DNA of 64,000 nucleotides from Acidobacteriota bacterium (GCA_027459505.1 DAIDIE010000019.1:49645-113644); one strand, 5' to 3'. Positions 805 to 59,655 are shown, counted from the stretch's first letter. Made by a program: numbers and translations. The notes: generated from the letters alone by a model not told the origin.

Positions 805-881
805 GGCTCTCGCCGGAGAAGGCGCATTTGACCCGCTCTGAAGCAATGCCGGCGGACGGTCAGCAGACGAGGCCGTGCCTC
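805..881 (+). repeat. Degenerate 3' part of dispersed structured repeat (subtype B)
   Basis: Ends in AGACGAGGCCGTGCCTC, identical to the 3' end of the copies at 4351-4456 and 53365-53544. Upstream GGCTCTCGCCGGAGAAGGCG resembles GGTCTCACCGCAGAACGCG of the 59455 copy. Confidence 0.55.
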
Positions 882-898
882 AATCCAGTGCCGTCACA

Positions 899-1582
899 TC
901 AGAGCTCTTTCAACGCCATCTCTGCCTCCCGCCATTGCGGGAAGCGCCGCTCCTCGGCCTGGAACTCGGGAGAGTGCACGCAGCGCCGCGATCCCTTCAT
1001 CCGCACAGGGAATTTCAAGTGCAGCATCTCGTGGTACAGCACGTACTCCAATAAAAAGCGCGGAACGCGGTTGGAATCAAATACGCGACTGATCAGAATC
1101 GTGTTGTGGGCGGCATCGTAGTGCCCTAACATGCGGCGCGCGACCGCCGGCCCCCAAGTCAGTACCGGGCGCGCGAGCAGGCCATGAAAGTAGCGCTGGT
1201 TGAGCTCTTCGAAGATCTCTTCCAGGTGGTGGACCTTGCCTTGTGGCGAAGAGATTTGTTTGCGGCCACGCATCGCACGGATGGTTTGGGTACGGGCCAC
1301 GATCTCAGGACGCCCGGCAAAGCGCCGGTAGCGGGCGTTGTAAAGCTCCGGCACCGGCAAGCGAAACAGCTTCCGTAACAAAATCTGCGCCAGGGCCTCA
1401 AGAACCGGCTCGGGCGCGGCCTCCAGAAGATCGCTCAAGCGCACCAGAATGCGGCCTTGGCGCAGCCGGATGGTGCTGTTGAGGTGAACGAAAGGAAAAA
1501 AGGACACTTCCAGTTCAGGAAGCGGCGTGCGAGGCTTAAGTTCACGGAATACAGCCAGAAACGTAGGATTCAGATCACGCAT
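899..1582 (-). CDS. SprT-like / YgjP-type zinc metallopeptidase
   Basis: HEMLH zinc-binding motif, LGHYD segment and HSPEF C-terminal motif. Confidence 0.8.
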   Translation of the reverse strand: MRDLNPTFLAVFRELKPRTPLPELEVSFFPFVHLNSTIRLRQGRILVRLSDLLEAAPEPVLEALAQILLRKLFRLPVPELYNARYRRFAGRPEIVARTQTIRAMRGRKQISSPQGKVHHLEEIFEELNQRYFHGLLARPVLTWGPAVARRMLGHYDAAHNTILISRVFDSNRVPRFLLEYVLYHEMLHLKFPVRMKGSRRCVHSPEFQAEERRFPQWREAEMALKEL

Positions 1583-1639
1583 GGAACGGCACGCTCACCC
1601 CCCGCCAGCACCTGTCCGGCGAGAAGGACAGCGACTACG

Positions 1640-2212
1640 TTACCAGAACTTGTGGCGGGAATGCTTCTTTTTGGCCAATGCTTTTTGGCGGCTGACGTTG
1701 AGTGCGTGTTGGGCGTCGTCGATGACCCCCTTGGTGGCGTCCACAGCATCATCCAGATCGTACTTGTAGTGCGATAACGTTGCCGCATTCATGTGCGTTC
1801 GCAACTGCAGGAGTTGTTGCAGGGCGCTCTGCTCTCCGCTCAGCGTGGCTTGCGAAAGCTTGCCGATTTTGGGAGGTGCGCCCATTTCTCCGGTTCTGTA
1901 GCCTCCCGCCAATTCATTTAAATTGTCATCAAGTTCGTTGGTGATCTCCGAGTACTGCCGCAGCAACCCGTAGAGTTCGTGAACATTCGGATCGGGAAGC
2001 TGCAGCCCTGAGCGGAAGCGCTGCAGACGATCCATAGCGAACGACATCAGTAGCTCCATCCGCTTTTTCGGGTTGATGGACGCGGAACGAACCTGATCGG
2101 CCTCGCTGCTCGTCAGCGGATCGTTGATCGTCTGAGCCCAAAGGCTCACACCCAAAGCAGAGAGGCTGAACAGCACAACGGCAACTCGAGTGCAGTTCCA
2201 TTGACGTCCCAT
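1640..2212 (-). CDS. Hypothetical secreted helical protein
   Basis: Signal peptide (VAVVLFSLSALGVSLWA); co-oriented and closely spaced with neighbours. Confidence 0.7.
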   Translation of the reverse strand: MGRQWNCTRVAVVLFSLSALGVSLWAQTINDPLTSSEADQVRSASINPKKRMELLMSFAMDRLQRFRSGLQLPDPNVHELYGLLRQYSEITNELDDNLNELAGGYRTGEMGAPPKIGKLSQATLSGEQSALQQLLQLRTHMNAATLSHYKYDLDDAVDATKGVIDDAQHALNVSRQKALAKKKHSRHKFW

Positions 2213-2223
2213 GGCTTATCCGG

Positions 2224-2787
2224 TCATCGCCCCCCTTGCGGGTTGGGGCTAAACGTGGCCTCTTGCAGCGCGTTCCGCCGTAGCTCACGCTTGGAACTAA
2301 ACATCAGCCGCAGCATCCGGTCCCGTAAGGCGTTTACGTAGTGATCGGCCGCTTGCAACGGCGGCCGGTCCTGCCGTTCGGCTTCTCGCGCCAGCGCCCG
2401 AAGCCCCGCATCCAGTTTGCGGAATTGCAGTTCCACTTTCTTCAGCCCCGACTTCTTGCCGTGTTCGGCATCGCTTTGCAGAACCTGCATGGCATCCGAG
2501 GCATGTTGGCTAAGCTGCCACAGGTCGTGGGAAGCCTGCCGGTAGTGGGCTCCCTGAAAGTTATTCTGCAACTGCTCCAGGTCCAAATTGGCCAATTCCG
2601 CGAACAGCGTCGCCTGCTTCTTTCCTGACGCGTGCTGGGCCTGCGCTAACAGGCGCGCGTAACCGTCTTGCTGGGCATAAAGCGGAAAACAAAACCCCGC
2701 CGCGACAATGCCCGCCATTACCCACCGCCCCCACTTCCTGCCCCGTTCCATCGCGAGTACCTCCGCGAAGCGCATCCGCCGCCTCAC
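2224..2787 (-). CDS. Hypothetical secreted helical protein
   Basis: Signal-like segment (WVMAGIVAAGFCFPLYA); operon-like spacing; start uncertain. Confidence 0.65.
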   Translation of the reverse strand: MRRRMRFAEVLAMERGRKWGRWVMAGIVAAGFCFPLYAQQDGYARLLAQAQHASGKKQATLFAELANLDLEQLQNNFQGAHYRQASHDLWQLSQHASDAMQVLQSDAEHGKKSGLKKVELQFRKLDAGLRALAREAERQDRPPLQAADHYVNALRDRMLRLMFSSKRELRRNALQEATFSPNPQGGR

Positions 2788-2811
2788 GCAGGTCTGTTGC
2801 CCGTGCGGCGG

Positions 2812-4134: not shown

Positions 4135-4323
4135 GTGCGACCCCATTGTAGCTAGTCCCCCCGGGAGCGAGCCACCGATGCGCGGCCCGGCCGGTTCACG
4201 TCCTGGCCGCTTCACGTCCGGAAAACCTGCCGGCGATCCGCCAAAGCAATATCAGTAGGCGGCTCAAGAGCGAGGCCGGGCCTCCCCCGTCGTCACTCCT
4301 GCACGCGCGATAATGAACTCACA

Positions 4324-5922
4324 ATGGACAAAGCCCGCGACAAACACAATGAGCGAGCCGCCGAGCCCTCCCCTTGGGAGAGATCGCCGGAGGGGAGATC
4401 CAGTGGACGGCCCCAAAGCTCCGAAGCGCGACCAGAAGGAGACGAGGCCGTGCCTCCCTCCGCCACCCCTCACATGACGCCGGAAGAATTCCGGCGTTAT
4501 GGCTATGCCGTAGTGGACTGGCTAGCCAACTACCAGCGGCGCGTCGAGAGCTTTCCAGTCCTCAGTCAGGCGGCGCCTAACAGCACGCGTGCCCTGCTGC
4601 CGGCCGAGGCTCCCCAACAAGGGGAACCCTTCGAACTCATCCTGGCTGACGTAGAACGCATCATCCTTCCCGGCCTGACGCACTGGCAGTCGCCTAACTT
4701 CTTCGCCTACTTCCCGGCCAACAGCTCCGGACCCTCCGTGCTGGGTGACCTGCTTTCTTCGGGACTCGGAATTCAGGGAATGCTATGGGCGACCAGCCCG
4801 GCAGCCACCGAATTGGAGACCCATGTTTTAGATTGGCTGGTGGACATGCTCGATTTGCCGCGCGGCTTTCTCTCCAGCGGAAGCGGCGGTGGGGTGATTC
4901 AGGATTCCGCATCCAGCGCCGCCCTATGCGCGATCCTCGCGGCCCGCGAACGAGCCACCGAAGGCGCCACCAATCGGTCCGGCGTCAACCAGCAGCAACA
5001 GCTTTTGGCGTACTGCTCTAGCCAGGCACACTCCTCAATAGAAAAAGGTCTTCGCGTGGCCGGCATTGGCAGCGCCAACCTTCGGCTCGTAGAAGTCGAT
5101 GAGACGTTCGCTCTGCGCCCGGATGCGCTTCGCGCTCAGATGGAAGAGGACCGTCGCGGTGGCGCAACGCCCTTCTTTGTTGCAGCCACTGCCGGTACGA
5201 CCTCCTCCAATGCCATGGACCCACTCGACCGGATCGGGCGCGTCTGCAATGAGTTCGGTGCCTGGCTTCACGTCGATGCCGCTATGAGCGGTACCGCTGC
5301 GCTTTGCCCCGAGCTTCGCTTCATCCATAAGGGTTTGGACTATGCCGACAGCTACTGCTTTGACCCGCACAAGTGGATGTTCACCAATTTTGATTGCACT
5401 GCCTTCTACGTGCGGGAACGGCAGCGCCTGATTTCCGCCCTGACGATCATTCCCGAATACCTGCGCAACCAGGCCAGCGAATCAGGAGCAGTTTGGGATT
5501 ACCGCGATTGGCACGTACCGCTGGGGCGCCGCTTTCGTGCGCTGAAACTGTGGTTTGTCATCCGCCATTTCGGGGTGGAGGGTCTACGCCAATATGTCCG
5601 GCGACACGTGGCCTGGGGGCGGCAGTTTGCCGGCTGGGTTCGCGACGATCGTCATTTCCAGCTCATGGCGCCGGCGCCACTTAACCTGGTCTGCTTCCGG
5701 CACGTGGGCCCGGACGACTTCAATGCGGAGTTGTTGCGGCGCATCAACCAGACCGGGCGGGCCTACCTGACTCACACCCGCCTGAGCGGCGCCTTTACCC
5801 TGCGCTTCTGTGTGGGGCAGACCAATACCGAGCTACGGCACGTGGAAGCCGCCTGGTTGCTCATTCAACAAACGGCGGCGCAGATGCGGCTGGAAGCGGC
5901 AGGGCACAACAGCCCAATCTAG
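4324..5922 (+). CDS. Aromatic L-amino-acid decarboxylase (group II PLP-dependent)
   Basis: MTPEEFRRYG, THWQSPNFFAYFP, HVDAA, PHKW (PLP lysine) and PLGRRFRALKLW motifs. Alternative start at ATG 4474. Confidence 0.9.
   Translation: MDKARDKHNERAAEPSPWERSPEGRSSGRPQSSEARPEGDEAVPPSATPHMTPEEFRRYGYAVVDWLANYQRRVESFPVLSQAAPNSTRALLPAEAPQQGEPFELILADVERIILPGLTHWQSPNFFAYFPANSSGPSVLGDLLSSGLGIQGMLWATSPAATELETHVLDWLVDMLDLPRGFLSSGSGGGVIQDSASSAALCAILAARERATEGATNRSGVNQQQQLLAYCSSQAHSSIEKGLRVAGIGSANLRLVEVDETFALRPDALRAQMEEDRRGGATPFFVAATAGTTSSNAMDPLDRIGRVCNEFGAWLHVDAAMSGTAALCPELRFIHKGLDYADSYCFDPHKWMFTNFDCTAFYVRERQRLISALTIIPEYLRNQASESGAVWDYRDWHVPLGRRFRALKLWFVIRHFGVEGLRQYVRRHVAWGRQFAGWVRDDRHFQLMAPAPLNLVCFRHVGPDDFNAELLRRINQTGRAYLTHTRLSGAFTLRFCVGQTNTELRHVEAAWLLIQQTAAQMRLEAAGHNSPI
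4351..4456 (+). repeat. Dispersed structured repeat, short subtype B copy inside the 5' end of the decarboxylase ORF
   Basis: Starts GAGCGAGCCGCCGAGCCCTCCCCTTGGGAGAGATCGC and ends GAAGGAGACGAGGCCGTGCCTC. Both ends match the 53365-53544 (minus) and 59455-59655 copies, with a shortened interior. Confidence 0.75.
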
Positions 5923-13977: not shown

Positions 13978-14016
13978 AAAAAAACAACCCTGTCCTCTTT
14001 GGAGAACAGGGTTGTT
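13978..14016 (-). terminator. Rho-independent terminator after moeZ
   Basis: AACAACCCTGT/ACAGGGTTGTT stem followed by a T-run on the minus strand, about 40 nt past the stop. Confidence 0.8.
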
Positions 14017-14055
14017 GGTGTTCCGCCGCCCAGGAATGGGCGTACGCTCTAACGC

Positions 14056-15237
14056 CTAGTACTTGGGCACGCTGGGATCGACTTCATCGCTCCAGGCCAG
14101 GATGCCGCCCTCCAGGTTGCGCACCTTCTTGAAGCCCGACTTCTGCAGGTAATCCAGCGCCTGCGCCGAGCGCCCACCCATTTTGCAATGCACCACGATG
14201 TCCTGCTCCGGGCTGAGCTCATGGGCGCGCTTCGGCAACTCGCCCAACGGGATCAGGATGGAGTTGGGAATGCGGCAGATCTGGTATTCATTGGGCTCGC
14301 GAACGTCGACGATCACCAACGGCTTGCCGGCGTCGATTTCGTCTTTCAACTCTAACGCGGTGATTTGCTTCATGCCGGCGATTTCCGGCACTGGCTGTGC
14401 CTCCTCCACGGCACGCATGCCACAGAACTCCTGGTAGTCGATCAGGTGCTTGATGGTCGGATGGGTGCCGCACACCGGGCAGTCCGGGTTCTTGCGCAGC
14501 TTGAGCTCGCGGAACTTCATCTGCAGCGCGTCAAACAGCATCACCCGGTTTTTGAGCGGCTGTCCAATGCCAAGGATGAGCTTAATGGTCTCCATGGCCT
14601 GCAGTGTGCCCATGATGCCGGGCAACACGCCCAGCACGCCGCCCTCGGCACAGCTCGGAACCAAGCCCGGGGGCGGCGGTTCCGGATACCAGCAGCGATA
14701 GCAAGGTCCATCCGGCAGAGCCAGCACCGACGCCTGTCCCTCAAAGCGGAAAATGCTGGCGTAGACGTTGGGAATTCCGGTCAGAACGCAGGCGTCATTC
14801 ACGAGATAGCGGGTGGGGAAGTTGTCGGTCCCGTCCACCACCAGGTCGTAGTCCTTAAAGATCTGCAACGCGTTTTCGCTGGTGAGCTTTTCGGCGTAGC
14901 CCACCACTTTAACGTTGGGATTGATCTCGGTAATCGTGTTGCGCGCCGACTCCAGCTTGAGCCGCCCCACATCGCCGGTGCCATGGATCACCTGGCGCTG
15001 CAGGTTGGTGAAGTCGACTGTGTCGTAGTCGACCACACCCAGCGTGCCAACTCCGGCGGCGGCCAGGTAGAGAGCCACCGGCGCGCCCAGACCGCCGGCG
15101 CCAATCATCAGAACGCGCGCGGCCTTGAGTTTACGCTGTCCTTCAATGCCGACCTCGGGAATGATGAGGTGGCGGCTGTAGCGCATGATTTCATCGTTGC
15201 TGAGATTCACCGAAACCGGTTCAGCCGTGGTTGCCAT
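14056..15237 (-). CDS. moeZ: ThiF/MoeB adenylyltransferase fused to rhodanese (MoeZ)
   Basis: RYSRH, GAGGLG, NLQRQ, CYRC/CPVC zinc sites and a C-terminal rhodanese (DVRE, HCKMGGRS). Confidence 0.9.
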   Translation of the reverse strand: MATTAEPVSVNLSNDEIMRYSRHLIIPEVGIEGQRKLKAARVLMIGAGGLGAPVALYLAAAGVGTLGVVDYDTVDFTNLQRQVIHGTGDVGRLKLESARNTITEINPNVKVVGYAEKLTSENALQIFKDYDLVVDGTDNFPTRYLVNDACVLTGIPNVYASIFRFEGQASVLALPDGPCYRCWYPEPPPPGLVPSCAEGGVLGVLPGIMGTLQAMETIKLILGIGQPLKNRVMLFDALQMKFRELKLRKNPDCPVCGTHPTIKHLIDYQEFCGMRAVEEAQPVPEIAGMKQITALELKDEIDAGKPLVIVDVREPNEYQICRIPNSILIPLGELPKRAHELSPEQDIVVHCKMGGRSAQALDYLQKSGFKKVRNLEGGILAWSDEVDPSVPKY

Positions 15238-15304
15238 AAAAAATACCTCGTGGGCGTTGACGCCCTGAAAGGCCTTTCAAGCGCGGCGGTGACGCGCAGG
15301 CCTT

Positions 15305-15332
15305 GCTTAATCTTCAAAGCTTAATCTTCAAA
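15305..15332. repeat. Tandem 14-mer duplication
   Basis: GCTTAATCTTCAAA occurs twice, exactly, between cysO and moeZ; AT-rich against the background. Confidence 0.7.
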
Positions 15333-15374
15333 ATCCGGGAGAGCCGAGGGCCGGGAGGAGCGGCCGCGAGCCGA

Positions 15375-15683
15375 TCAACATCGGCTACAACAACAGGCAG
15401 AAGCGGGCGAGCCGCCCGCGATGGAGGGGACGATCGAGAGCGTGTCGCTCGGTTTCACCGGCGTCTTCTCGGCGCCGGTGTAACGGATGTCTTCGTCGTT
15501 CAAATAGACGTTGACGAAGCTCCGCAGCTTGCCTTCCGCGGTAAATAGGTGACTCTTGAGCTGGGGATGGGAGCTGACCAACTGCTGCAGCACCTCGCCC
15601 ACATCGCTTCCAGACACCTCCACCGCGTCTTTTCGGTCCGTATAGGGCCGCAAGGGGGTGGGGATATAAACCTTCACTGCCAT
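15375..15683 (-). CDS. cysO: MoaD/ThiS-family sulfur carrier (CysO-like) with C-terminal extension
   Basis: MAVKVYIPTPLR...FVNVYLNDEDIRY...SIVPSIAGG followed by SPASACCCSRC; GGAGAGG RBS upstream of ATG 15683. Confidence 0.85.
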   Translation of the reverse strand: MAVKVYIPTPLRPYTDRKDAVEVSGSDVGEVLQQLVSSHPQLKSHLFTAEGKLRSFVNVYLNDEDIRYTGAEKTPVKPSDTLSIVPSIAGGSPASACCCSRC

Positions 15684-15704
15684 TGTTCTGATCCTCTCCA
15701 AACC

Positions 15705-15875
15705 AGCCAGCGCCGAGTCGAACTGCGTTCGAGTTCGCAATCGCAGGCCGAAGTCGTAGCGAAGGTCCGGGGTTGCCGTTAGGTCCCGAACCGCTGGCGA
15801 CTCATAAAGCGCAACGGCCCATCCGTGAGCTTCGGCCCAACACCGAAGCAAGTGGAAAAAAAGCGGCCGTGCCGC
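15705..15875 (+). repeat. Dispersed structured repeat, subtype A (full copy)
   Basis: Aligns by eye with 30581-30793, 27706-27820 and 19298-19348: AGCCAG.GCCGAGTCGAACT...AGTTCG..ATCGCAGGCCGAAG...GGGGTTGCCGTT...ACCGCTGGCGACT...GCGGCCGTGCCGC. Confidence 0.9.
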
Positions 15876-16088
15876 CTCCGCCTGCCCAGCTTGGCTGAGC
15901 AACGATTCGCTGCGGCGCCTTCCGAACCAGGTTTTCAACGAGCTTGCTCACCTGATTCCAGCCCCGGCGTCGAACTTGCATTTGACGCCGGTCACCGACA
16001 CCGGTCCGCGATACTGGACAGCTCAACCCAGCGGCCACTCGAGCCCTTGGCGCGAGGTGAATAGCCGGTGTCCCTGCCCAGTCTTTCT

Positions 16089-16118
16089 ATTATCGGCTAT
16101 TTAGGCCCCGCTTGCCAA
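16089..16118 (-). promoter_or_regulatory. Putative sigma70 promoter toward cysO-moeZ
   Basis: Minus strand TTGGCA-N18-GATAAT. Confidence 0.4.
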
Positions 16119-16195
16119 AGGCGGGGCGGCTGGAGCCCAAGCGGGGGGCAGCCAGCCCGGCCTCCGCAACCTTGGGGGCCAGGCTGGAATGACAG

Positions 16196-16633
16196 CTAGA
16201 GGTCCGCGCCTGCTACCGCCAGCTCTTCCTGGATGAAGTGGCTGCGATCCTCAGCCAATTCAAAGGAGTTCACCGCACCCGTTTTCCCTTGCGCCACCGA
16301 CATGATCACGTAGGAATAGCCCGGCCAACTGGCGTGATCCAGATCGAATTGCGAAGGACGCGCCGGATGATCCGGGTGCGAGTGATAAAAGCCGATGATC
16401 TCCAATCCTCGCTCCCGGGCTTCGCGCTGCACCCGAAGGTGCTCGCGAGGATCGAAGTCAAAGCGGTTTTCCGGTGTCGCCGCGTTTACGTTGCGCATGC
16501 GCACCACACCCTGGACCTGGCGCTGCTCCGCTTGCGAGGTGCCCAGCAATATGCCACAACATTCGTGCGGATACGTATCCTGCCCATGCCGGCGCAGTTC
16601 CTCGTAATCGGCTGGATTGAAGACGATGGCCAT
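16196..16633 (-). CDS. JAB/Mov34 (M67) metallopeptidase, Mec-like
   Basis: YPHECCG and YHSHPDHPARPSQFD JAMM motif; clustered with cysO, moeZ and cysM. Confidence 0.9.
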   Translation of the reverse strand: MAIVFNPADYEELRRHGQDTYPHECCGILLGTSQAEQRQVQGVVRMRNVNAATPENRFDFDPREHLRVQREARERGLEIIGFYHSHPDHPARPSQFDLDHASWPGYSYVIMSVAQGKTGAVNSFELAEDRSHFIQEELAVAGADL

Positions 16634-16712
16634 GCAAAACCCCGCTGTTCCGGCTCGAAATACGGTAAATCCGCGCCGGTGGAAGGGAATTTCAGTATAG
16701 CAATCCGCCGCT

Positions 16713-17444
16713 TCACTCCCGCGGGAGTTGGAAAACCAAAGTGATTCGCGTCGTTACCTGAACGGGGTTTCCATCCAATAGCGTGGGCGAGAAGCGCCAT
16801 TGAGAAACGGCGCGCAGCGCCTCGCCAACGAAGATAGGGCTGCCACTGGCTGCCCGGCAGCGCAGGATGTGCCCATCGCTGCCCACGAGCGCCTCAATCA
16901 CCACCGTCCCGCTCATGTTCGTGGCGCGCGCCAGAGCGGGGTACTCCGGCGCCGGACAGAACAGGCAATGCGCCTCCAGCACGCCGCTGCTGATTCGCTG
17001 TGCCGCAGCCCCGGTAACGTGCTGCCTCGCGCGGCCGGGGTTGGATCCGTTGCTATTGGCTCCAGGCTGGAAAACGCCTGGAGCGCTGTTTACAAAGCCG
17101 CGAAAGGGCAGGGAAGCGGTGCCAGTAGCAGTCGTGAAGTTGAAGTTGGGCGCCGGCACTGCCGTTGCCGGCGCGCCGGTCGATACCATCTGGGGCGGCG
17201 CGGGAACTGGCGACGGGGTGTTGACCACTTGATGAACGCGCGTTACGGACACCTCTGCCGGCGGGGTCATAACGGGAAAGTCCACGTTGAGAGGAGAGGT
17301 GGGCACCGGCGGCATTGGGCAACGGTAGAGCGGCTGCAACAGAAACAGGCTGAGCGCCGCTGCCTGAATCCCAGTTGCGATCAACAACGAGCGGGTACGG
17401 GGAAACGCCGCCGCGCTTTCGGGGAGCAGGATTTCCTGGAACAT
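16713..17444 (-). CDS. TonB-family energy transducer
   Basis: N-terminal TM, Pro-rich linker and C-terminal PEYPALAR...GTVVIEALV...AVSQWRFSP; AGGAGG RBS before ATG 17444. Confidence 0.85.
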   Translation of the reverse strand: MFQEILLPESAAAFPRTRSLLIATGIQAAALSLFLLQPLYRCPMPPVPTSPLNVDFPVMTPPAEVSVTRVHQVVNTPSPVPAPPQMVSTGAPATAVPAPNFNFTTATGTASLPFRGFVNSAPGVFQPGANSNGSNPGRARQHVTGAAAQRISSGVLEAHCLFCPAPEYPALARATNMSGTVVIEALVGSDGHILRCRAASGSPIFVGEALRAVSQWRFSPTLLDGNPVQVTTRITLVFQLPRE

Positions 17445-17656
17445 AACTTCCAAGCCTCCTGCCGGAATAGAACCCGCGCGGCACAGGTTTGTTCCCAGCG
17501 GAAAACAAATCGGGGAACGGCTGGCAGACAATGACAACCTGTGCAACCAAGGTCGCCCCTCATCGTCTGCGCCGTTCCCCATGCCCCGGGGCTCCTGGAA
17601 CTTCCCCATGGGCAAACTGTTACTGCGACAGCTTTCTCTGAGCTAACTCATCGGGA

Positions 17657-19015
17657 CTAGCCCACCAGCGTTACCACCGATTGCGCGGGGATGGTGATGG
17701 TTACCGTTCCGCCGCTGACTGGAACCGGGCTCAGTACCGCCTGGTTTTCGGTCGAGGAGGTGCGGTACGGAGTCAAGCTGGAAGGCAGCGTCGAAATGCC
17801 TTTAAACGTGACCGTGGTGGTGATGTTCTGCTTGGATTTATTCGTGAGCACCACTGCTACGCTGCCGCTAGTGGGTTGAACCGCGGTCGGCTCGAGATTG
17901 GAGTTGGAGGTGCTGGTGGTCAGTACAATCGAGCCCGGGCGCATGAAGCGGCTGAAGTTTCCGATCACGTATAGACGCTTGGGCACCTGGTAGGTGAAGG
18001 TGGTGTTGTTGTACTGAATGAGCCCCTCGTTGTCGTTGTTGTAGTTCATGCACCACCACCACAGCCAGGCGCGGAAGTTGCCGGTGTTGAGTGCGCCGTA
18101 GATGGAGTCGGCCCAGTTCAACGCTTCGGTGATCGTTCCGCTGTAGGAGCCACTGGTCGTGCTGATTTCCGTCATCCAGATGGGCTTGTTGTACTGAATG
18201 GCGGACTGCGACGGATCGGCAAGGTTGCTGGTCGAGCCATAGCCGTGCGTCGCCAGAATGTCGAGATCGGCGTCCATCTGCGCGTTGCTCAGCAGCGGGT
18301 CGCCCCAATTGCTGTCGAAGTAGGAGGCACCGCCGTACACCGCCGGTTCCGGCAGCATGAGTTTGCTGGTCAGGCCGGCGTTCACCATCGCCGGCTTGAG
18401 GTAGCCAGTCACGAAGGAGATGAATTGCGCCGGTGTGTAGCTTGCGCTGTCATAGCTGGTGCTGGTGGACGGCTCGTTCTGCGTACTCCAGATATTGACC
18501 TCCTGCCCCAGTTGAGCCTTGGCGTCCTGCATCCACAGCACCATGGTGTTGGCCAGGTCGGGATAATACTGCGTCAGCACCGAGCCGCCGTTGGAACAGG
18601 AGCCGTTGGACTTCATGAAGGCGGGTGGCGTCCAGGTGGTCACCATGAACTGGTTCACCCCGTAGGTGGACTTCACCCGGTTCATCCAGTTCATCTCGGA
18701 TTGAATCAGCGGGTCGTTGAAGTTGTAGGTGCCCGCGGAAGGCTCGAACTGGCAGAGCATGGAGCCGGCGCGGATAATGCTCAGGCCGGCGCTGGGCATG
18801 GAGGTGTTGTAAAGGTCGTCGAGAATCGCGGTTTGATCGGCGGCGGAAAAGTTGCTCAGGTCGTTGGCGGTCCAGGTGATGGACCCGCCGAAGCCGGCAA
18901 GGGTTTGCTTGGGCTGGCTGTAGTCAACCGTGACGTTGGCGGTGGCGGCCTGTAACGGTATAGCCGTGAGGGCTAAGGCGAGGGCGGCTAGGCCCCAGTG
19001 GCGAGACTGCAACAT
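17657..19015 (-). CDS. GH30 glycoside hydrolase (glucuronoxylanase-like), secreted
   Basis: Signal peptide, GFGGS, WTPPAFMKSN, QNEP (acid/base), WMTE (nucleophile), FSRFMRPG; AGGAG RBS. Confidence 0.85.
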   Translation of the reverse strand: MLQSRHWGLAALALALTAIPLQAATANVTVDYSQPKQTLAGFGGSITWTANDLSNFSAADQTAILDDLYNTSMPSAGLSIIRAGSMLCQFEPSAGTYNFNDPLIQSEMNWMNRVKSTYGVNQFMVTTWTPPAFMKSNGSCSNGGSVLTQYYPDLANTMVLWMQDAKAQLGQEVNIWSTQNEPSTSTSYDSASYTPAQFISFVTGYLKPAMVNAGLTSKLMLPEPAVYGGASYFDSNWGDPLLSNAQMDADLDILATHGYGSTSNLADPSQSAIQYNKPIWMTEISTTSGSYSGTITEALNWADSIYGALNTGNFRAWLWWWCMNYNNDNEGLIQYNNTTFTYQVPKRLYVIGNFSRFMRPGSIVLTTSTSNSNLEPTAVQPTSGSVAVVLTNKSKQNITTTVTFKGISTLPSSLTPYRTSSTENQAVLSPVPVSGGTVTITIPAQSVVTLVG

Positions 19016-19095
19016 TTTGCGTTCTCCTGGTGTGAGCACGAGCAGGGTGCTCAACGAATTAGAGGGCTCTCCGGGAGAGCTACACTGGCTCGCAA

Positions 19096-19244
19096 CTATA
19101 CCGCTGCAGATTCAGAAATCAACAAGTTTTTTGGTTGGCGCCGCCGCAACTATTATTTTTTTGCAAGCGCTTGCAGCGCTCCCCCCCCGGCCTAACCCCC
19201 GCCGCGGCAAAGACTTAGGCCGGTTTCCGCCTGTACCGCTATAG
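19096..19244. promoter_or_regulatory. Three LacI-type operator-like sites upstream of GH30
   Basis: CTATACCGCTGCA (19096-19108), perfect palindrome TGCAAGCGCTTGCA (19162-19175) and TGTACCGCTATAG (19232-19244). Confidence 0.65.
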
Positions 19245-19297
19245 TTCCCGCGCGCGCCTCCAAAAAAATCGCGCAACGCGCCTCCGGTCCCGTCAGC

Positions 19298-19348
19298 ACG
19301 AGCCAGGGCCGAGTCGAACTTCTTTCGAGTTCGAGAGCGCAGGCCGAA
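19298..19348 (+). repeat. Dispersed structured repeat, subtype A (5' part)
   Basis: ACGAGCCAGGGCCGAGTCGAACTTCTTTCGAGTTCGAGAGCGCAGGCCGAA; weaker similarity continues to about 19385. Confidence 0.85.
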
Positions 19349-19404
19349 CTGGGGGGGGCTACTAGGTCCCGCCCCTGCGGCGAAATCCCTCCGCCGGCGC
19401 CGTT

Positions 19405-20343
19405 CTACTCCAGCGCCCAGAAGCGTTCGCTCAGGTACTTGTCGGCGTTGTCGGGAAAAACCGTGACGATCACCGCCGCTTGCTCACAGTTTCTCGCGAC
19501 GCGTAAGGCGCCCACCATGGCGGCGCCGGCGCTGACGCCCACCAGCAGGCCTTCTTCCCGCGCCAGCCGCTTCACCATCTCGTAGGCCTCTTCCGTGCCG
19601 ATGCCCAAATTCTCATTGGCCAACTCGGGAGAGTAAATCGCCGGAACCAGCGCCGATTCCATATGCTTCCAGCCTTCCAGGCCGTGAAACGGGGAATCGG
19701 GCTGCAAGGAGATCAGGCGCACCGCCGGATTCAACTCCCGCAGCCGCAGACCGGTTCCCATGAAAGTGCCGCTGGTGCCCAGCCCGGCAACGAAGTGGGT
19801 GACGCGGCCCTCGGTCTGACGCCAGATCTCCTCCGCGGTGGAGTGGTAATGAGCTTTCCAGTTATTCGGGTTGCTGTATTGATCGATGTAGTGATAGCGC
19901 CCCGGATTTTCCGCCACCATGGCTTGCGCTTTGCGGATTGCGCCGTCGGTGGACTCGCCAGGATCGGTCAGCACCAGTTCGGCGTTGTAGGCGCGCAGAA
20001 TGCGTTTGCGTTCGGGGCTGGCGTTTTCCGGCAGGCAGAGGCAGACGCGGTAACCCCGCACCGCCCCGATCATCGCTAGCGCAATGCCGGTGTTGCCGCT
20101 GGTCGCGTCGAGAATAATCTTGTCTGGGGTAAGCTCTCCGCTGGCCTCCGCCGCCCGCACCATGCTCAGCGCCGCACGGTCTTTGACGCTGCCGCCAGGA
20201 TTGAACCACTCCGCTTTGACTAGGATCCGCACGTGGGGGAACTCGCTGGCAATGCGTTCCAGGCGCAGTAAAGGTGTGTTTCCAATCCGCTCCAGCAGGG
20301 ATTGGCCAAGTGCAGTGGAAGTTGAGGCGGTGGACATCGACAT
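19405..20343 (-). CDS. cysM: Cysteine synthase (CysM-type, PLP)
   Basis: IGNTPL, NPGGSVKDR (PLP lysine), TSGNTG, GTSGT, DKYLS. Start 20343 or 20337. Confidence 0.9.
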   Translation of the reverse strand: MSMSTASTSTALGQSLLERIGNTPLLRLERIASEFPHVRILVKAEWFNPGGSVKDRAALSMVRAAEASGELTPDKIILDATSGNTGIALAMIGAVRGYRVCLCLPENASPERKRILRAYNAELVLTDPGESTDGAIRKAQAMVAENPGRYHYIDQYSNPNNWKAHYHSTAEEIWRQTEGRVTHFVAGLGTSGTFMGTGLRLRELNPAVRLISLQPDSPFHGLEGWKHMESALVPAIYSPELANENLGIGTEEAYEMVKRLAREEGLLVGVSAGAAMVGALRVARNCEQAAVIVTVFPDNADKYLSERFWALE

Positions 20344-20413
20344 TGCACTTCTATTATGACGGAGAGGCACCCACAACCGGCACCCTGCCGCCGCCTATGC
20401 CGCCGTGTTCACC

Positions 20414-21079: not shown

Positions 21080-21330
21080 ACCCTTAAGACGGCCAACCGG
21101 CGCACGCAGGTTGGGTGAGCGTGCCCCGCGTTCCACTGTGTTGGCCAATATTGCGAGTCGGGACGCACGGCGATGGAACCGCATGGACATCTCAATGGAC
21201 ACGGCTGGCTTCGAACAACTACGCGGACTTTGTGAATAAAAGTCTCGGCCCAATAGCCAGAAAGCTCCAGACAGCCATGAGAAAAGCCGAACAGAGTATA
21301 AGCAGTAAAGTGTCTGCCAGATCCGCCACC

Positions 21331-22407: not shown

Positions 22408-22488
22408 TAAACCTTCGCCCGCCCTGCCTGCAAACTCCACACGGTTGAAGGCGACGCAGGGCAGCGCCGCCATGATGCCTCATTTGGC

Positions 22489-23391: not shown

Positions 23392-23404
23392 CGCCGCCGC
23401 CCGC

Positions 23405-23818: not shown

Positions 23819-23970
23819 AATTCAAGGCGCCGCGGCGGGCTTGGCACAGACTACTACAATCCCGGCAAGGGCACCAGATGCGAAGCCGGGGAAAAAGGGC
23901 CTTTTCCCTCGCTGGGGAGCGCCATGCCGCTTCTAAGCGCTTCTTAAATTTCTCGCCGGACGCTAAAAAT

Positions 23971-23983
23971 CTATAGCGCTACA
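23971..23983. promoter_or_regulatory. LacI-type operator upstream of GH3
   Basis: CTATAGCGCTACA is the exact reverse complement of the TGTAGCGCTATAG site upstream of the GH30 gene at 28038. Confidence 0.7.
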
Positions 23984-24013
23984 AATCCTCGCAAATGGGT
24001 TTATCATAACGGC

Positions 24014-26749: not shown

Positions 26750-26858
26750 GGGCACGTCAGTAAACGCAATTGGGCGTGGCAACAGCGGCGCGGGGAGATG
26801 TTTCACCGGATCTCCCCGCGCCGTCTGCTTTTTCGGGGAAGACCTGGAAGTGTGCTTA

Positions 26859-27705: not shown

Positions 27706-27820
27706 ACGAGCCAGGGCCGAGTCGAACTCGTTTCGAGTTCGAAGTCGCAGGCGGAAGTGACAACGAAGGCCCGGGGTTGCCGTTTAGGTCTCACACCGCT
27801 GGCGACTAAAGGCCGGCCAC
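27706..27820 (+). repeat. Dispersed structured repeat, subtype A (core)
   Basis: ACGAGCCAGGGCCGAGTCGAACTCGTTTCGAGTTCGAAGTCGCAGG...GGGGTTGCCGTTTAGGTC...ACCGCTGGCGACTAAAG.CCGGCCAC. Confidence 0.9.
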
Positions 27821-27966
27821 TTAACCCCCCCCTAGAAAAAAGCTTTTGCGCCTCGCCGCGGGGTGTTCCCCCACCAGGTGGATCCTTAGTTCCACAGGAC
27901 TTTCCGGGGCCGACCGTCCCGCTCAACCAAACCTCCAAATGCGATTGTGAAATGATCAATTTTTCG

Positions 27967-53364: not shown

Positions 53365-53544
53365 GAGGCACGGCCTCGTCTCCTTCAGGCCGCCCGCTCC
53401 CGTTGGTCGCTGGCACGTTCTCCAGTGAAAACGTGAAGCCGCCGATGCCGGGCTCCTCTCCCGCGCGAGGGGGCCGCCCTTCGGAATTTCGCGGCCCTCC
53501 ACCTGCGATCTCCTCCCGCAGGGAGGACTCGGTGGCTCGCTCCT
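53365..53544 (-). repeat. Dispersed structured repeat, subtype B (full copy, minus strand)
   Basis: The reverse complement aligns end to end with 59455-59655: AGGAGCGAGCC.CCGAGTC...GGGAGGAGATC..CGCAGGTG.AGGGCCGCGAAATTCCG..GGGCGGCCCC...CCCGGC.TCGGCGGCTT...CTGAAGGAGACGAG.CCGTG.CTC. Confidence 0.9.
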
Positions 53545-53847
53545 CTGGAGCCAGTCCTTGGCGCTGGCCGCCTGGCGCTAGGGGCTCTATCCCGCCTGCG
53601 ATGGAAGTGGACTTGTGCGCTGAGGCGGGACGGGGCGTGGAGGCTGCGCGGCTATCGTTCGGAAACTGCACTCGCGGCGGCCTCCAGGGCTACCAGCACG
53701 CCGGCTGGCTGGACTTGGGGCGCTTCACGGCTGAAAAAGTGTTGCGGGGCAAGCGGTCCATTGGGATAGGATGAGGCGTCCTTCCCCTGAAGCTGGCGGG
53801 GAGGATCGAAACGTTCGCGGCATGAGCAGGGCAAGGAGTGTGCACAT

Positions 53848-58347: not shown

Positions 58348-58770
58348 CTACAGCGGCGCCCTTTCCGGTGCCGCGATGAAGCCAATACCAGGCACATCTA
58401 GTTTCAGCAGCCGGGCGTCGTTGGTCAGAAATAAATCCACTCCGCATTGCGCTGCGCAGGCCAACTGAATGGCATCCGCGTTGCGCAGCCCGTGGGCGGC
58501 TCGCAGCCTCGCATAGCGCCGCGCCGCCAGCTCGTCAAAACAGACGATGACAGCCGACGCCCGCAGCGCCCTGGCGTACTCCTCAGCCAGCGCGCTCCGG
58601 CCAAGTTCCATCGGCTTGACGAGAATCTCCCCCAGTGTCATGGCCGAGGTAACAAGCCGGTCGCCCCGCTCCAGCATTCGTCTCCGGATTTCCACCACCC
58701 GGCTCCGGTAGGGTTCGCGGCCCTCAAATAGATAGATAAACAGGTTTGTGTCGAAGAAAATGCGTCTCAT
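58348..58770 (-). CDS. vapC: VapC PIN-domain toxin
   Basis: FFDTNLFIY, TLGEILV, DAIQLA, FLTND; overlaps the upstream gene (ATGA). Confidence 0.9.
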   Translation of the reverse strand: MRRIFFDTNLFIYLFEGREPYRSRVVEIRRRMLERGDRLVTSAMTLGEILVKPMELGRSALAEEYARALRASAVIVCFDELAARRYARLRAAHGLRNADAIQLACAAQCGVDLFLTNDARLLKLDVPGIGFIAAPERAPL

Positions 58771-59273
58771 CCGGGCTCATTTCGCAAGCGGTTGACATAG
58801 GCGTCAGCGTGCTCCTGCGCCCAAACCCCCTTACCCGATCCCGACAGGCGGATCAGCGCATCCCGCGCGCCTGGTGGCCCGCCGGCATGGGAGTGTTTGC
58901 GAGACCACTGTTCATACCAGTCGAGCAGCGGCCAATAGCGCGCGGGCGTCTCGGCCGCTTGCGGCATATGTTTCGAGGGCCGCTTCGATTGACGTTCCGG
59001 GTGCACGTCGTCGCCCGCACGGAAAAGCCTGAGATGCCCAGCACGTGTTTCATACAGCATCCGGTACTTGCCGCCGCAAGGTTTGGTGTTGGCAACCAAG
59101 TGCTGTTTGAGATGTGCGTTCACCGATCCCGGTCCCGCCCCATCGCTCAATCCGGATTCACGCAGCGATTCCCGTATCTCGTCCCTTGTGAAATCCCCGC
59201 GCCGCGGATAGCGGCGGTGCAGCAGCGCCACGGCAACCCAAATACGGTCCGCCAGTTTCAGCCGTTTTTCCAT
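58767..59273 (-). CDS. Putative large antitoxin (uncharacterised N-domain plus antitoxin-like tail)
   Basis: Translationally coupled to vapC; C-terminal LSGSGKGVWAQEHADAYVNRLRNE resembles VapB neutralising tails. Confidence 0.65.
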   Translation of the reverse strand: MEKRLKLADRIWVAVALLHRRYPRRGDFTRDEIRESLRESGLSDGAGPGSVNAHLKQHLVANTKPCGGKYRMLYETRAGHLRLFRAGDDVHPERQSKRPSKHMPQAAETPARYWPLLDWYEQWSRKHSHAGGPPGARDALIRLSGSGKGVWAQEHADAYVNRLRNEPG

Positions 59274-59295
59274 GGCTCTTGCACGCCTCAAAACG

Positions 59296-59358
59296 ATGAT
59301 ACCTCACGTAACTAGGTATGTGAGGGCCTGGTATGCGCGGACGTGGTATGCGAGGGCG
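59296..59358 (-). promoter_or_regulatory. Putative promoter and operator array of the TA operon
   Basis: Minus strand CTCACA-N17-TATCAT; ATACCT/AGGTAT inverted repeat; three tandem 15-mers AGGTATGTGAGGGCC, TGGTATGCGCGGACG, TGGTATGCGAGGGCG (59314-59358). Confidence 0.55.
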
Positions 59359-59374
59359 TGCTGACCGGCAGGAT

Positions 59375-59420
59375 GGGCCGGAGGCCGAAGCGGGTGGAAG
59401 AAACAGCGGTCCGTGCCGCT
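59375..59420 (+). repeat. 3' tail of dispersed repeat subtype A
   Basis: GGGCCGGAGGCCGAAGCGGGTGGAAGAAACAGCGGTCCGTGCCGCT versus GGGCCGGACACCGAAGCGGGTGGAATAAAAGCGGCCGTGCCGCT at the end of the 30581 copy. Confidence 0.75.
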
Positions 59421-59454
59421 CCTTGCGCGATCCCCGCCGAGGAGGCGCCGGGTT

Positions 59455-59655
59455 AGGAGCGAGCCCCCGAGTCGTTCCTATGGGAGGAGATCCCCGCCCA
59501 GCAACGGCAGAATCGCAGGTGCAGGGCCGCGAAATTCCGCTGGGCGGCCCCGGCGGGAGTGGCGCCCGGCCTCGGCGGCTTGGCGGTCTCACCGCAGAAC
59601 GCGGCAGGGGTCATCAACCGGAACGGCCGGTCTGAAGGAGACGAGCCCGTGGCTC
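59455..59655 (+). repeat. Dispersed structured repeat, subtype B (full copy)
   Basis: Inverted homolog of 53365-53544 with a ~22-nt insertion; terminal hairpin GAGCC-CGT-GGCTC. Confidence 0.9.

What the first reader, a model, noticed from the sequence alone, without database searches (positions are those of the whole stretch)
805..59655. Abundant dispersed structured repeat family with two subtypes, shared end motifs and covarying hairpins
Seen in sequence: subtype A copies at 15705-15875, 19298-19348, 27706-27820 and 30581-30793, plus a tail at 59375-59420. Subtype B copies at 4351-4456, 53365-53544 (minus) and 59455-59655, plus fragments at ~805-881 and 35675-35690. The subtypes share one architecture. 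(1) A 5' AGCC-N-CCGAG(T/C)C motif. (2) A hairpin whose sequence differs but pairing is kept (A: CGAACT/AGTTCG; B: CTCCC/GGGAG). (3) A TCGCAGG motif in most copies. (4) A terminal hairpin with a CGT triloop and compensatory changes (GCGGC/GCCGC, GAGGC/GCCTC, GAGCC/GGCTC). In A, the GCTTCGG/CCGAAGC stem has a 7-nt loop in one copy and an entire extra hairpin in another, and several substitutions give G-T pairs on the + strand. All copies but one are on the + strand. Inference: selection acts on single-stranded structure, so this is either a non-autonomous mobile element (REPIN/MITE-like; one B copy has a REP-like GTAG at 53362) or a multicopy ncRNA. No cognate mobilising enzyme is in the window, and I do not recognise the family.
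Basis: partly seen in the sequence, partly recalled or inferred. Interest (0 to 1): 0.82.

Follow-up and report, generated by a model that had tools for sequence, protein, structure and literature searches.

The report
Abundant structured mobile repeat, enzyme unknown
A soil acidobacterium carries several hundred copies of a 175-190 base element that folds on one DNA strand, inserts without the usual transposon scars and occurs only in its bacterial family, so it looks like a new non-autonomous mobile element whose mobilising enzyme is still unknown.

Summary

A and B are one family. Both begin with a three-way junction: a closing helix, a conserved CCGAGTC-hairpin-GA(A/G)ATCGCAGG arm and a second hairpin. 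Both end in a GGC-YGT-GCC hairpin. These helices covary across at least five genera (20 of 28 pairs compensatory). A conserved G·T pair marks the + strand as the folding strand.

The elements have sharp ends, no target duplication and no inverted ends. They insert 3 nt after a C (89-93% of 5' flanks; 29 of 30 in a second genus). They nest in one another, form composites and are absent from a syntenic site in a congener. Neighbouring copies share a strand (277 of 346), whatever the strand of adjacent genes. Within the genome, copies decay without regard to pairing.

Best reading: a non-autonomous, single-strand ("peel-and-paste"-like) transposable element mobilised in trans. No Y1, TnpB, IS110, IS91 or RT gene carries its ends or co-occurs with it. 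It has no Rfam match. The closest description in print is the class 3 TnpA-Y1 "CnGA-foot" structures of Acidobacteria. I rate it a new variant of a known kind.

The parts
807..881 (+). B-type 3' fragment (profile positions 114-189) that keeps the end hairpin GAGGC-CGT-GCCTC
   Evidence: nhmmer E=2.5e-05; the repeat finder D7 and I5
4204..4284 (+).
   Evidence: nhmmer E=7.2e-05
4350..4456 (+). Short, divergent B-type copy (about 107 nt) with the 5' GAGCC..CCGAG motif, hairpin 1 and the end hairpin
   Evidence: nhmmer 4350-4430, E=0.0015; sequence read; the repeat finder I6
15702..15875 (+). Full A-type copy. C at -4 is base 15698. Closing helix P1 is 15706-15710 with 15794-15798. CCGAGTC is 15713-15719. 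Hairpin 1 is 15718-15738. TCGCAGG is 15741-15747. The second hairpin (CGGGG..TCCCG) is 15768-15788. The end hairpin GCGGC-CGT-GCCGC is 15863-15875.
   Evidence: nhmmer E=2.4e-46; model R1 71 bits, E=5.8e-25; sequence; helices
19298..19383 (+). A-type 5' domain only (profile positions 1-100); the 3' part is lost
   Evidence: nhmmer E=4.8e-14; R1 43 bits, E=4.9e-14
27706..27821 (+). A-type 5' domain (profile positions 1-119); the 3' module is missing
   Evidence: nhmmer E=5.6e-27; R1 65.3 bits
30581..30793 (+). Full A-type copy with the optional 39-nt extra hairpin (about 30716-30754) inserted in the loop of the GCTTCGG/CCGAAGC stem
   Evidence: nhmmer in two chained parts; the insert recurs at profile positions 132-137 in 23 of the 96 full A copies as a 33-41 nt form; sequence
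53365..53544 (-). Full B-type copy (180-nt form). Its 5' three-way junction is 53450-53547 and its end hairpin is 53365-53377.
   Evidence: nhmmer E=1.3e-57; the A-only model R1 hits it at E=3.3e-07; first row of alignment A3
59375..59420 (+). A-type 3' tail (CCGAAGC..GGTGGAA.. plus a degenerate end hairpin), 35 nt upstream of the next B copy
   Evidence: the repeat finder D3: 59375-59403 is 90% identical to 30751-30779; sequence
59455..59655 (+). Full B-type copy with a 22-nt insert after profile position 36. Its end hairpin is the compensated variant GAGCC-CGT-GGCTC (59643-59655).
   Evidence: nhmmer E=5.5e-28; insert listed; sequence

Best explanation
The repeats are a lineage-restricted family of non-autonomous mobile elements. 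They are recognised and moved as a folded single strand, the + strand as written.

Shown by the calls:
- The 5' 100 nt form a three-way junction. It has a closing helix, an arm with the invariant CCGAG(T)C / GA(A/G)ATCGCAGG internal loop capped by a free-sequence hairpin, and a second hairpin.
- The 3' end is a 5-bp hairpin with a GGC-YGT-GCC core that stops exactly at the boundary.
- Insertion leaves no duplication and always lies 3 nt downstream of a C.
- The element itself ends in C-C-N-N.

Inferred:
- A trans-acting enzyme that works on single-stranded DNA cuts the same strand after C-N-N-N at both junctions.
- It lifts the strand out and pastes it after another C-N-N-N in DNA exposed as a single strand, most simply at replication forks. 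This is the logic of IS200/IS605 'peel and paste' transposition.
- The enzyme is of the HUH/Y1 kind or something not yet recognised.

The enzyme was not identified. Structure is conserved because it is needed for mobilisation. Once inserted, copies decay neutrally.
For: - Abundance and sharp ends: 381 loci; the 176 near-full copies (83 A, 93 B) differ from the consensus by a median of about 5%.
- No target duplication at any of the k and offset settings tested, in 188 copies. No link between the flank and internal positions.
- C at -4 in 89% of 158 A and 93% of 121 B 5' flanks, and in 29 of 30 distinct 5' ends in genome G007 of another genus. Right ends read CCGC, CCTC, CCTG or CCAC.
- Nesting and composites. 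New copies sit after GAGTCGAA inside A copies. B joined to A from position 22 is found at three loci. Mini forms of 79-123 nt keep both ends.
- Presence or absence at a syntenic site: the element at G007:C22 about 5000 is lacking in G001:C17 about 68900-69000.
- Copy number ranges from 0 to more than 140 among the 28 genomes of the family. There are 0 hits in 73 sister-family genomes.
- Covariation on the MAFFT alignment A1: 89.1% of cells paired against 26-43% when partners are slid, and 12 pairs changed on both sides.
- Covariation on the model-fitted A2: 90.8% against 30-44%, 20 of 28 pairs compensatory, score 0.444 against at most 0.08. Six of its 31 rows come from unpublished genomes.
- B-like copies fold de novo into the same junction, with 11 of 25 pairs compensatory.
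- A conserved G·U pair in 25 of 30 rows marks the + strand as the folding strand.
- Neutral decay inside the genome: of 369 changed stem cells, 13 restore a standard pair, 71 give G·T and 285 are mismatched.
- Co-orientation: 277 of 346 neighbouring pairs share a strand (p about 5e-21 against the 0.559 expected). Whole contigs are uniform, for example 20/0, 0/16 and 33/3. Only about 55% match the strand of the adjacent gene.
- Orientation tracks a gene-independent strand asymmetry (AT skew at third codon positions): rho=-0.64, p=0.001 over 23 contigs, and -0.56, p=2e-05 over 50 windows.
- The G007 hits listed are also uniform per contig (C6 6/6, C22 7/7, C36 6/6, C45 6/6).
- Precedent in print: class 3 TnpA-Y1 genes of Acidobacteria are flanked by atypical structures with a 5' CnGA foot, about 600 copies in one genome (PMC6006769; passages and section 27 read). 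Here an invariant CCGA lies 1 nt before hairpin 1.
Against: - No enzyme was found. The two Y1_Tnp genes of this genome (C40, C42) are flanked by other hairpins, not by A or B ends.
- G007 (at least 142 copies, 96% complete) and G004 (48 copies) give no Y1_Tnp match.
- Homologues of the two Y1 proteins do not follow the element among 40 relatives.
- No ORF in this genome carries the class 3 motif YV[VI]xEQ.
- A 100-nt conserved junction with invariant unpaired bases is far more elaborate than the simple end hairpins of IS200/IS605 or REPs.
- Target specificity is one base, not a tetra- or pentanucleotide.
- The link to replication is not established. GC skew does not follow orientation. dnaA at C8 about 91 kb lies in a run of 20 co-oriented copies with no switch. 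The 2 clean switches are both divergent and none is convergent.
- Single copies fold no better than shuffles (z from -1.0 to -2.1).
- All family genomes searched are fragmented assemblies (20-470 contigs), so a missing gene is weak evidence either way.
Confidence: 0.5

Rival explanations
1. An RNA-mediated mobile element (a bacterial SINE-like or ribozyme-bearing retroelement). The element is transcribed and the 5' junction is an RNA domain, possibly one that defines its own 5' end. A reverse transcriptase copies it back into single-stranded DNA at forks.
For: - The conserved, covarying three-way junction with invariant unpaired bases and a conserved G·U looks more like a functional RNA than a transposon end.
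- Optional hairpins grow out of loops, as in structured RNAs.
- The 5' boundary lies a few bases before the closing helix.
- This genome and G007 each have an RT gene of about 700 aa.
- Reverse splicing of introns into the lagging-strand template would also give strand polarity (recalled knowledge, not checked here).
Against: - The two RTs are not orthologous (E=5.2e-07 over the RT core only). G004, G013 and G017 have elements but no RVT_1 match.
- There is no Rfam ribozyme or intron match, even at E up to 10.
- Orientation is independent of neighbouring genes, so co-transcription is not favoured.
- 5'-truncated copies (81) are not in excess over 3'-truncated copies (90).
- No conserved promoter can lie in the unrelated flanks.
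Confidence: 0.15
2. A domesticated REP-like system. The copies are kept because they serve the host, for example as transcription stops, mRNA end protectors or chromosome-organising polar sites. They are maintained by a single-copy enzyme like a RAYT.
For: - The family has persisted across at least five genera.
- Chromosome-scale co-orientation is what polar host motifs show.
- On the minus strand the A-type 3' end reads as a GC hairpin followed by T4-7 (read).
- An IS110-family element sits inside a B copy, as such elements do in REPs.
Against: - Copies decay without regard to pairing.
- Copy number runs from 0 to more than 140 among close relatives.
- There is no preference for convergent gene ends. 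The counts of upstream and downstream neighbour strand are 108 same-same, 84 same-opposite, 80 opposite-same and 79 opposite-opposite.
- The terminator scanner called nothing at 15600-16000, and B lacks the T run.
- The RAYT-like gene at C42 is flanked by a different hairpin family.
Confidence: 0.15
3. A multicopy family of working non-coding RNA genes, each copy functional.
For: Covariation and the conserved G·U pair; no coding signal was apparent.
Against: - 189 of the 381 loci are truncated.
- 285 of 369 changed stem cells are mismatched, against 13 that restore a standard pair.
- Copies nest in one another.
- The flanks share no promoter, and there are sister genomes with none.
Confidence: 0.07
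4. Non-autonomous derivatives, or dedicated targets, of the IS110/IS1111-type element found in this genome, moved by its recombinase and guide RNA.
For: The only DEDD/IS110 transposase gene of the genome (336 aa, with PF01548 and PF02371) lies inside a B copy, within the optional 42-nt hairpin. IS110 elements also lack inverted ends.
Against: - The ends of that insertion sequence do not resemble A or B ends.
- PF01548 was found in 2 of 5 genomes tested. It was not found in G007, G001 or G004, which hold 48 to more than 142 copies.
- It explains neither the C-N3 rule nor the strand polarity.
Confidence: 0.04

Closest known systems
[quoted passage not shown] 2018, PMC6006769; I read passages and section 27, and its supplementary Table S1 was closed)
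   Same: Same phylum. High copy number (about 600 in one genome, per the paper). A structured repeat that is not a canonical GTAG REP. Here an invariant CCGA (a CnGA) lies 1 nt 5' of hairpin 1.
   Different: No class 3 gene was found here. I could not see the published structures, so homology is untested. The signature of this family is at background level in 300 other genomes of the class. The element here is 175-190 nt with a three-way junction, not a simple hairpin.
IS200/IS605 insertion sequences and their gene-less derivatives (palindrome-associated transposable elements); 'peel and paste' single-strand transposition (PMC5027513 and PMC3201880, abstracts seen in the search listing)
   Same: No inverted ends and no target duplication. 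Folded ends on one strand. Insertion 3' of a short flank motif. Orientation bias over long stretches. Read-through composites.
   Different: The known ends are simple imperfect hairpins and the target is a 4-5 nt word read by base pairing. Here one C is required, the left end is a 100-nt conserved junction, and no TnpA with these ends exists in the assemblies.
REP / BIME / REPIN elements with RAYT (TnpA-REP)
   Same: Hundreds of intergenic copies, vertical persistence in a lineage, presumed action of one enzyme in trans, and use as a landing site by an IS110-family element.
   Different: REPs are 20-40 nt palindromes with a GT[AG]G foot, often in inverted pairs. These elements are 175-190 nt, co-oriented and single. 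The RAYT-like gene here (C42) carries other hairpins.
Classical bacterial MITEs (Correia, ERIC, RUP, Nezha and the like; recalled)
   Same: Small, non-coding, abundant, and with internal deletion derivatives.
   Different: MITEs have terminal inverted repeats and target duplications. Both were tested here and not found.
Integron attC sites (recalled)
   Same: Recognised as a folded single strand with structure conserved over sequence; orientation tied to replication.
   Different: attC sites sit in cassette arrays next to an integrase and have the R/L box pattern. Nothing of that kind is seen here.

Membership tests
IS200/IS605-derived non-autonomous element | No target-site duplication and no terminal inverted repeats | tested here: met
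   No k-mer (k=2-5, 15 offset pairs) is enriched between the flanks of 188 copies. The ends differ from each other.
IS200/IS605-derived non-autonomous element | Subterminal hairpins at both ends on one active strand | tested here: met
   Hairpin 1 starts 17 nt from the left end, and a 5-bp hairpin sits at the right end. Both covary. A conserved G·U marks the + strand.
IS200/IS605-derived non-autonomous element | Insertion 3' of a specific tetra- or pentanucleotide that pairs with a guide inside the left end | tested here: inconclusive
   Only C at -4 is fixed (89-93%; 29 of 30 in G007). T at -5 is about 40% and C at -3 about 50%. There is no flank-internal covariation.
IS200/IS605-derived non-autonomous element | A cognate TnpA (Y1) element with the same ends in the genome or its relatives | tested here: not met
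   There are two PF01797 hits, neither flanked by A or B ends. None in G007, G004 or G017. All assemblies are incomplete.
IS200/IS605-derived non-autonomous element | Active strand on the lagging-strand template (orientation follows the replichore) | tested here: inconclusive
   Strong co-orientation and a correlation with strand AT3 skew. However, there is no switch at dnaA, no GC-skew signal, and origin and terminus are not mapped.
REP/REPIN-RAYT | A 20-40 nt palindrome with a 5' GT[AG]G foot | tested here: not met
   The elements are 175-190 nt and the foot is CCGA(G).
REP/REPIN-RAYT | Inverted pairs (REPIN) and a RAYT gene flanked by the same REPs | tested here: not met
   277 of 346 neighbours are co-oriented. 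The C42 RAYT-like gene is flanked by CCCACTCAAC..GTTGAGTGGG hairpins.
Class 3 TnpA-Y1 associated structures | 5' CnGA foot at a hairpin, in high copy | tested here: met
   CCGA is invariant 1 nt before hairpin 1 in all 26 rows of A1. There are 381 loci.
Class 3 TnpA-Y1 associated structures | A class 3 gene (NHVH .. YV[VI]xEQ) flanked by the structures | tested here: not met
   No ORF has the Y motif, and the PF01797 hits are of the class 1 and class 2 type. The published structures could not be compared because the supplement is closed.
Classical MITE | Terminal inverted repeats and target-site duplication | tested here: not met
Any Rfam 15 family (including Acido-1, Acido-Lenti-1, self-cleaving ribozymes, group II intron domains) | Covariance-model match | tested here: not met
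   At gathering score the window gives only a tRNA. At E up to 10, the A copy gives no match. The B copy's best match is psaA at 19.9 bits against a cut-off of 50.

The most novel reading that the evidence does not exclude
The conserved 100-nt three-way junction is not just a transposase handle. It may be an active nucleic acid, for example a new small self-processing ribozyme or a scaffold for an unrecognised single-strand recombinase. In that case the family would be a new class of mobile structured element with its own mobilisation chemistry, distinct from HUH/Y1, DDE, IS110 and RT systems.
Probability: 0.15. Interest if true: 0.88.

Novelty: new variant of a known kind. Interest (0 to 1): 0.6.

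Why it matters
If the reading holds, one uncultured acidobacterial family has carried for a long time a single-strand-type mobile element. Its recognition module is a large, covarying three-way junction, and no known transposase matches it.

That makes two questions testable:
- Which enzyme moves gene-less structured repeats in genomes that lack a recognisable Y1 transposase?
- How much structure can such an enzyme read?

The element also breaks assemblies, since many contigs end in B copies. It makes up 1.4% of the genome. It offers landing sites for an IS110-family element. Its uniform orientation could be used to order contigs and infer replication direction in these genomes.

Tried and rejected
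Family matches
- Rfam at gathering score and at E up to 10: nothing usable.
- blastn of one A and one B copy against 72,556 plasmid records: no match.

Enzyme hunt
- Y1_Tnp: two genes in this genome, both with unrelated flanks.
- TnpB zinc ribbon PF07282: none.
- RVT_1: one gene of 701 aa, not orthologous to the RT of G007.
- Y2/IS91: only on the 2.6-kb contig C41 of this genome.
- IS110: this genome and G031 only.
- Regular-expression search for the class 3 Y motif: none. Its companion HUH..Y pattern was too strict to find even the two known Y1 genes, so that part is void.
- 5' ends followed by 3' ends within 8 kb gave host genes or the IS110 insertion, not an autonomous element.
- Genes between inverted copies showed no pattern.
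- ORFs next to 26 copies in low-copy relatives gave only spurious high-GC ORF clusters.

Flanks
- No target duplication, no complementarity between the 5' and 3' flanks, and no covariation between flank and interior.

Replication
- GC skew, raw or at third codon positions, does not follow orientation.
- dnaA is not at a switch point.

Other tests
- Local hopping: copies within 20 kb are only slightly more alike (divergence 0.099 against 0.129 for A, 0.086 against 0.105 for B).
- Terminator and promoter scan of 15600-16000: none called, although by eye the minus strand reads hairpin plus T7.
- Single-sequence folding is not better than shuffles.
- Expression: no RNA holder was listed. The one DNA run (X1, soil metagenome, 5% of words) laid on 14000-33900 gave only short pieces of other organisms and no joint at an element.
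- Taxonomy: the search for related loci with a window protein found nothing, and the protein atlas gave only a glycoside hydrolase family.

Literature
- Three searches listed no description of this family.
- Supplementary Table S1 of PMC6006769, which may list the acidobacterial class 3 structures, could not be opened.

Full report

Yes. The window is G000:C36:49645-113644, part of a 4.06-Mb, 45-contig assembly with about 62% G+C.

- Single copies used as nhmmer queries hit 25 to 218 places each in the genome.
- Alignment of full copies with 40-nt flanks shows that similarity starts and stops abruptly.
- A starts ACGAGCC and ends GCGGCCGTGCCGC. It is about 174 nt long.
- B starts AGGAGCGAGCC and ends GAGGCCGTGCCTC. 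It is 180 or 189 nt long.
- With trimmed profiles and chaining there are 381 loci: 216 A and 165 B, 57,084 bases or 1.4% of the genome. Of these, 96 A and 96 B keep both ends, 90 keep only the 5' end, 81 keep only the 3' end and 18 keep neither.
- The signature CCGAGTC-N12-26-TCGCAGG occurs 141 times against 2 for the reversed control.
The 13-16 nt piece near 35680 is too short to judge.
- Several contigs end inside B copies with 141-nt overlaps, so the repeat breaks the assembly.

**2. Anatomy**

A MAFFT alignment was made of 26 A-like 5' domains from this genome and four relatives of three other genera (G007, G004, G009; alignment A1).

- It shows invariant stretches (GGCCGAGTC, ATCGCAGG, GGGG..CC..GG.CCC) set between segments that differ completely between genomes.
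- RNAalifold pairs the invariant GCC/GGC and GA/TC around hairpin 1 and finds the second hairpin.
- I added the long-range closing helix seen by eye. It reads GCCAG/CTGGC here, GTTAA/TTAAC in G007, GTTCA/TGAAC and GCACCGG/CCGGTGC in G004 and G009.
- On A1 this 28-pair structure has 89.1% of cells paired against 26-43% when partners are slid by 1-3 columns. Twelve pairs change on both sides (4-7 when slid). The covariation score is 0.244 against at most 0.095.

A covariance model (R1) then aligned 31 hits from 17 genomes (A2).

- 90.8% of cells are paired against 30-44% when slid.
- 20 of 28 pairs are compensatory.
- The score is 0.444 against at most 0.08, and no shuffle out of 500 reaches it.
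- This alignment is fitted to the model, and 6 of its rows come from unpublished genomes (G015, G016, G018, G033), so A1 is the cleaner test.
- One pair is a conserved G·U in 25 of 30 rows. It would be an A·C mismatch on the other strand, so the + strand is the one that folds.

The 3' end hairpin keeps a GGC-YGT-GCC core, while its two outer pairs change together. The stems read GC/GC, GA/TC, GT/AC and CA/TG, and GAGCC/GGCTC occurs at 59643-59655.

**3. Are A and B one family?**

Yes.

- R1 was built from A-like copies only, yet it hits the B copy at 53450-53547(-) over its full length with E=3.3e-07.
- RNAalifold was run on an unguided alignment of seven B-like 5' domains from five genomes. 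It predicts the same closing helix, conserved arm, hairpin 1 and second hairpin, with 11 of 25 pairs compensatory.
- Elements of genus g6 are hybrids. They have an A-like junction followed by the B motif ACCAACGGGAG and a CAGGC-YGT-GCCTG end.
- Variants differ by whole hairpins added in loops: 39-42 nt modules at A positions 132-137, B position 62 and B position 38, and a module of about 115 nt after A position 93.

**4. Evidence that it moves, and how it inserts**

- The 176 near-full copies differ from their consensus by a median of about 5%. Copies less than 20 kb apart are only slightly more alike.
- No target duplication exists.
- The 5' flank has C at -4 in 89% of 158 A and 93% of 121 B copies, T at -5 in about 40% and C at -3 in about 50%. 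Positions -3 to -1 vary freely. The 3' flank carries no information.
- The three variable bases covary with nothing inside the element or in the other flank, so they are target DNA.
- The same rule holds in another genus: 29 of 30 distinct 5' ends in G007 have that C.
- The element's own last four bases are C-C-N-N in nearly all subfamilies. Both junctions on the + strand therefore follow C-N-N-N.
- Copies land inside other copies after GAGTCGAA (A position 21).
- A B copy joined to A from position 22 recurs at three loci, twice without the upstream A piece. This suggests that a B left end and an A right end were used together.
- Forms of 79-123 nt that keep only the two ends exist.
- At a syntenic locus, G007 has an element between a stop codon and the next gene, and its congener G001 has none. 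The intergenic DNA is too diverged to read the junction base by base.

**5. What selection acts on**

In the 96 full A copies, 369 stem cells differ from the consensus pair.

| Outcome of the change | Cells |
|---|---|
| Restores a standard pair | 13 |
| Gives G·T | 71 |
| Gives A·C | 100 |
| Gives another mismatch | 185 |

Resident copies therefore drift. The covariation seen between genomes reflects what a copy needs in order to be propagated.

**6. Orientation**

- 277 of 346 neighbouring pairs share a strand, against 0.559 expected from the overall strand counts (p about 5e-21).
- Contigs of 70-220 kb are uniform: C8 20/0, C9 0/16, C10 33/3, C42 15/0, C26 15/0, C31 1/18.
- C8 and C9 overlap end to end in the orientation that keeps all 36 copies co-oriented.
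- The strand of the adjacent gene agrees in only about 55% of cases.
- I removed the coding-strand component from third-position skews. The remaining strand component of AT skew then correlates with orientation: rho=-0.64, p=0.001 over 23 contigs, and -0.56, p=2e-05 over 50 windows. The GC component does not correlate.
- By the usual rule that the leading strand has T>A (recalled), the folding strand is the leading-strand sequence. That is the strand exposed as the lagging-strand template.
- This remains an inference. dnaA lies in a run of co-oriented copies. Only two clean switches are seen, both divergent. The origin and terminus are unmapped.
- G007 shows the same per-contig uniformity in the hits listed.

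**7. Distribution**

- R1 finds the junction in 17 of 28 genomes of the taxonomic family: at least 141 here, at least 142 in G007 (both capped), 71 in G001, 48 in G004, 15 in G009 and 1-11 in genus g6. It finds none in genera g3, g4 and g7.
- It finds none in 73 genomes of the sister family.
- The simple signature is at background level in 300 other genomes of the class.
- In a scan of 185,579 species genomes, it occurs more than once per genome only in records titled 'MAG: Acidobacteria bacterium'.

**8. The enzyme**

It was not found.

- The two Y1 genes here are of the IS200-like and RAYT-like types and have their own, different hairpins.
- They do not follow the element among relatives.
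- TnpB, IS91/Y2, IS110 and RT were each checked and do not fit.
- No autonomous copy exists in this assembly.
- All family genomes searched are fragmented assemblies (20-470 contigs), and repeat-flanked or plasmid-borne genes are easily lost from such assemblies.

**9. Comparison with what is known**

- The behaviour matches IS200/IS605 single-strand transposition in its logic: no duplication, no inverted ends, folded ends on one strand, insertion after a flank motif, and orientation bias.
- It fails the membership test on the cognate transposase, and it differs in the size and conservation of the left-end structure.
- It is not a REP/REPIN, not a classical MITE and not an Rfam family.
- The nearest description in print is the class 3 TnpA-Y1 group of Acidobacteria and Planctomycetes. 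Those genes are flanked by atypical structures with a 5' CnGA foot, about 600 copies in one acidobacterial genome (PMC6006769).
- Here CCGA lies 1 nt before hairpin 1, but no class 3 gene was detected and the published structures could not be inspected.
- Three literature searches listed no description of this family.

**10. Verdict**

- The feature is real, abundant and restricted to one lineage.
- It is very likely a mobile non-autonomous element (about 0.85).
- It is most likely moved as single-stranded DNA by an unidentified trans-acting enzyme (0.5).
- An RNA-mediated route (0.15) and a host-serving REP-like role (0.15) remain open.
- I rate it a new variant of a known kind, with interest 0.6.

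Noticed in passing
L011 about 600-2050 (G000:C22 about 4226-5676): A 1.45-kb IS110-family element (336-aa transposase with PF01548 and PF02371, and a long 3' non-coding end of about 330 nt) is inserted in the opposite orientation inside a B copy. It sits within the optional 42-nt hairpin. It is the only PF01548 hit in the genome.
   Followed up: partly
L010 (G000:C42:122203-125457), gene at 1486-2040: A RAYT-like Y1 gene (184 aa) is flanked on both sides by CCCACTCAAC..GTTGAGTGGG hairpins and by runs of a GTTGCCA/GTTGTCA heptamer. This is a second repeat system, unrelated to A and B.
   Followed up: no
L009 (G000:C40:6975-8772): An IS200-like Y1 gene is cut off by the contig end, with a GTAG-footed hairpin (GTAGCCAGGGA..TCCCTGG) downstream. 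No other contig continues it.
   Followed up: partly
G000 contigs C1, C33, C45, C29: The strand component of GC skew at third codon positions reaches +0.33 (C1, first 60 kb) and -0.32 (C33, 40-80 kb). That is far larger than elsewhere in the genome and is unrelated to repeat orientation. It remains unexplained.
   Followed up: no
G001, many contigs: G001 carries a homogeneous mini-variant of the 5' junction, 75 nt long. About 27 of the listed hits share the identical score of 33.1 bits, which suggests a very recent burst of a deleted form.
   Followed up: no
L012 253-2358 (G000:C39:89640-91745): A 701-aa protein whose only Pfam match is RVT_1 (residues 76-286). It is possibly a defence-type reverse transcriptase. 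Relatives have only distant counterparts.
   Followed up: partly
G000:C41 (2,646-bp contig): An IS91-type Y2 transposase (PF04986, E=1.7e-40) with a second ORF lies on a short stand-alone contig. It was not found in the four relatives tested.
   Followed up: no
window 26862-26935 (-) and 27026-27052: A tRNA gene (Rfam, 66.8 bits) lies about 90 nt from a 13-nt match to the B-type 3' end (ACGAGGCCGTGCC).
   Followed up: no
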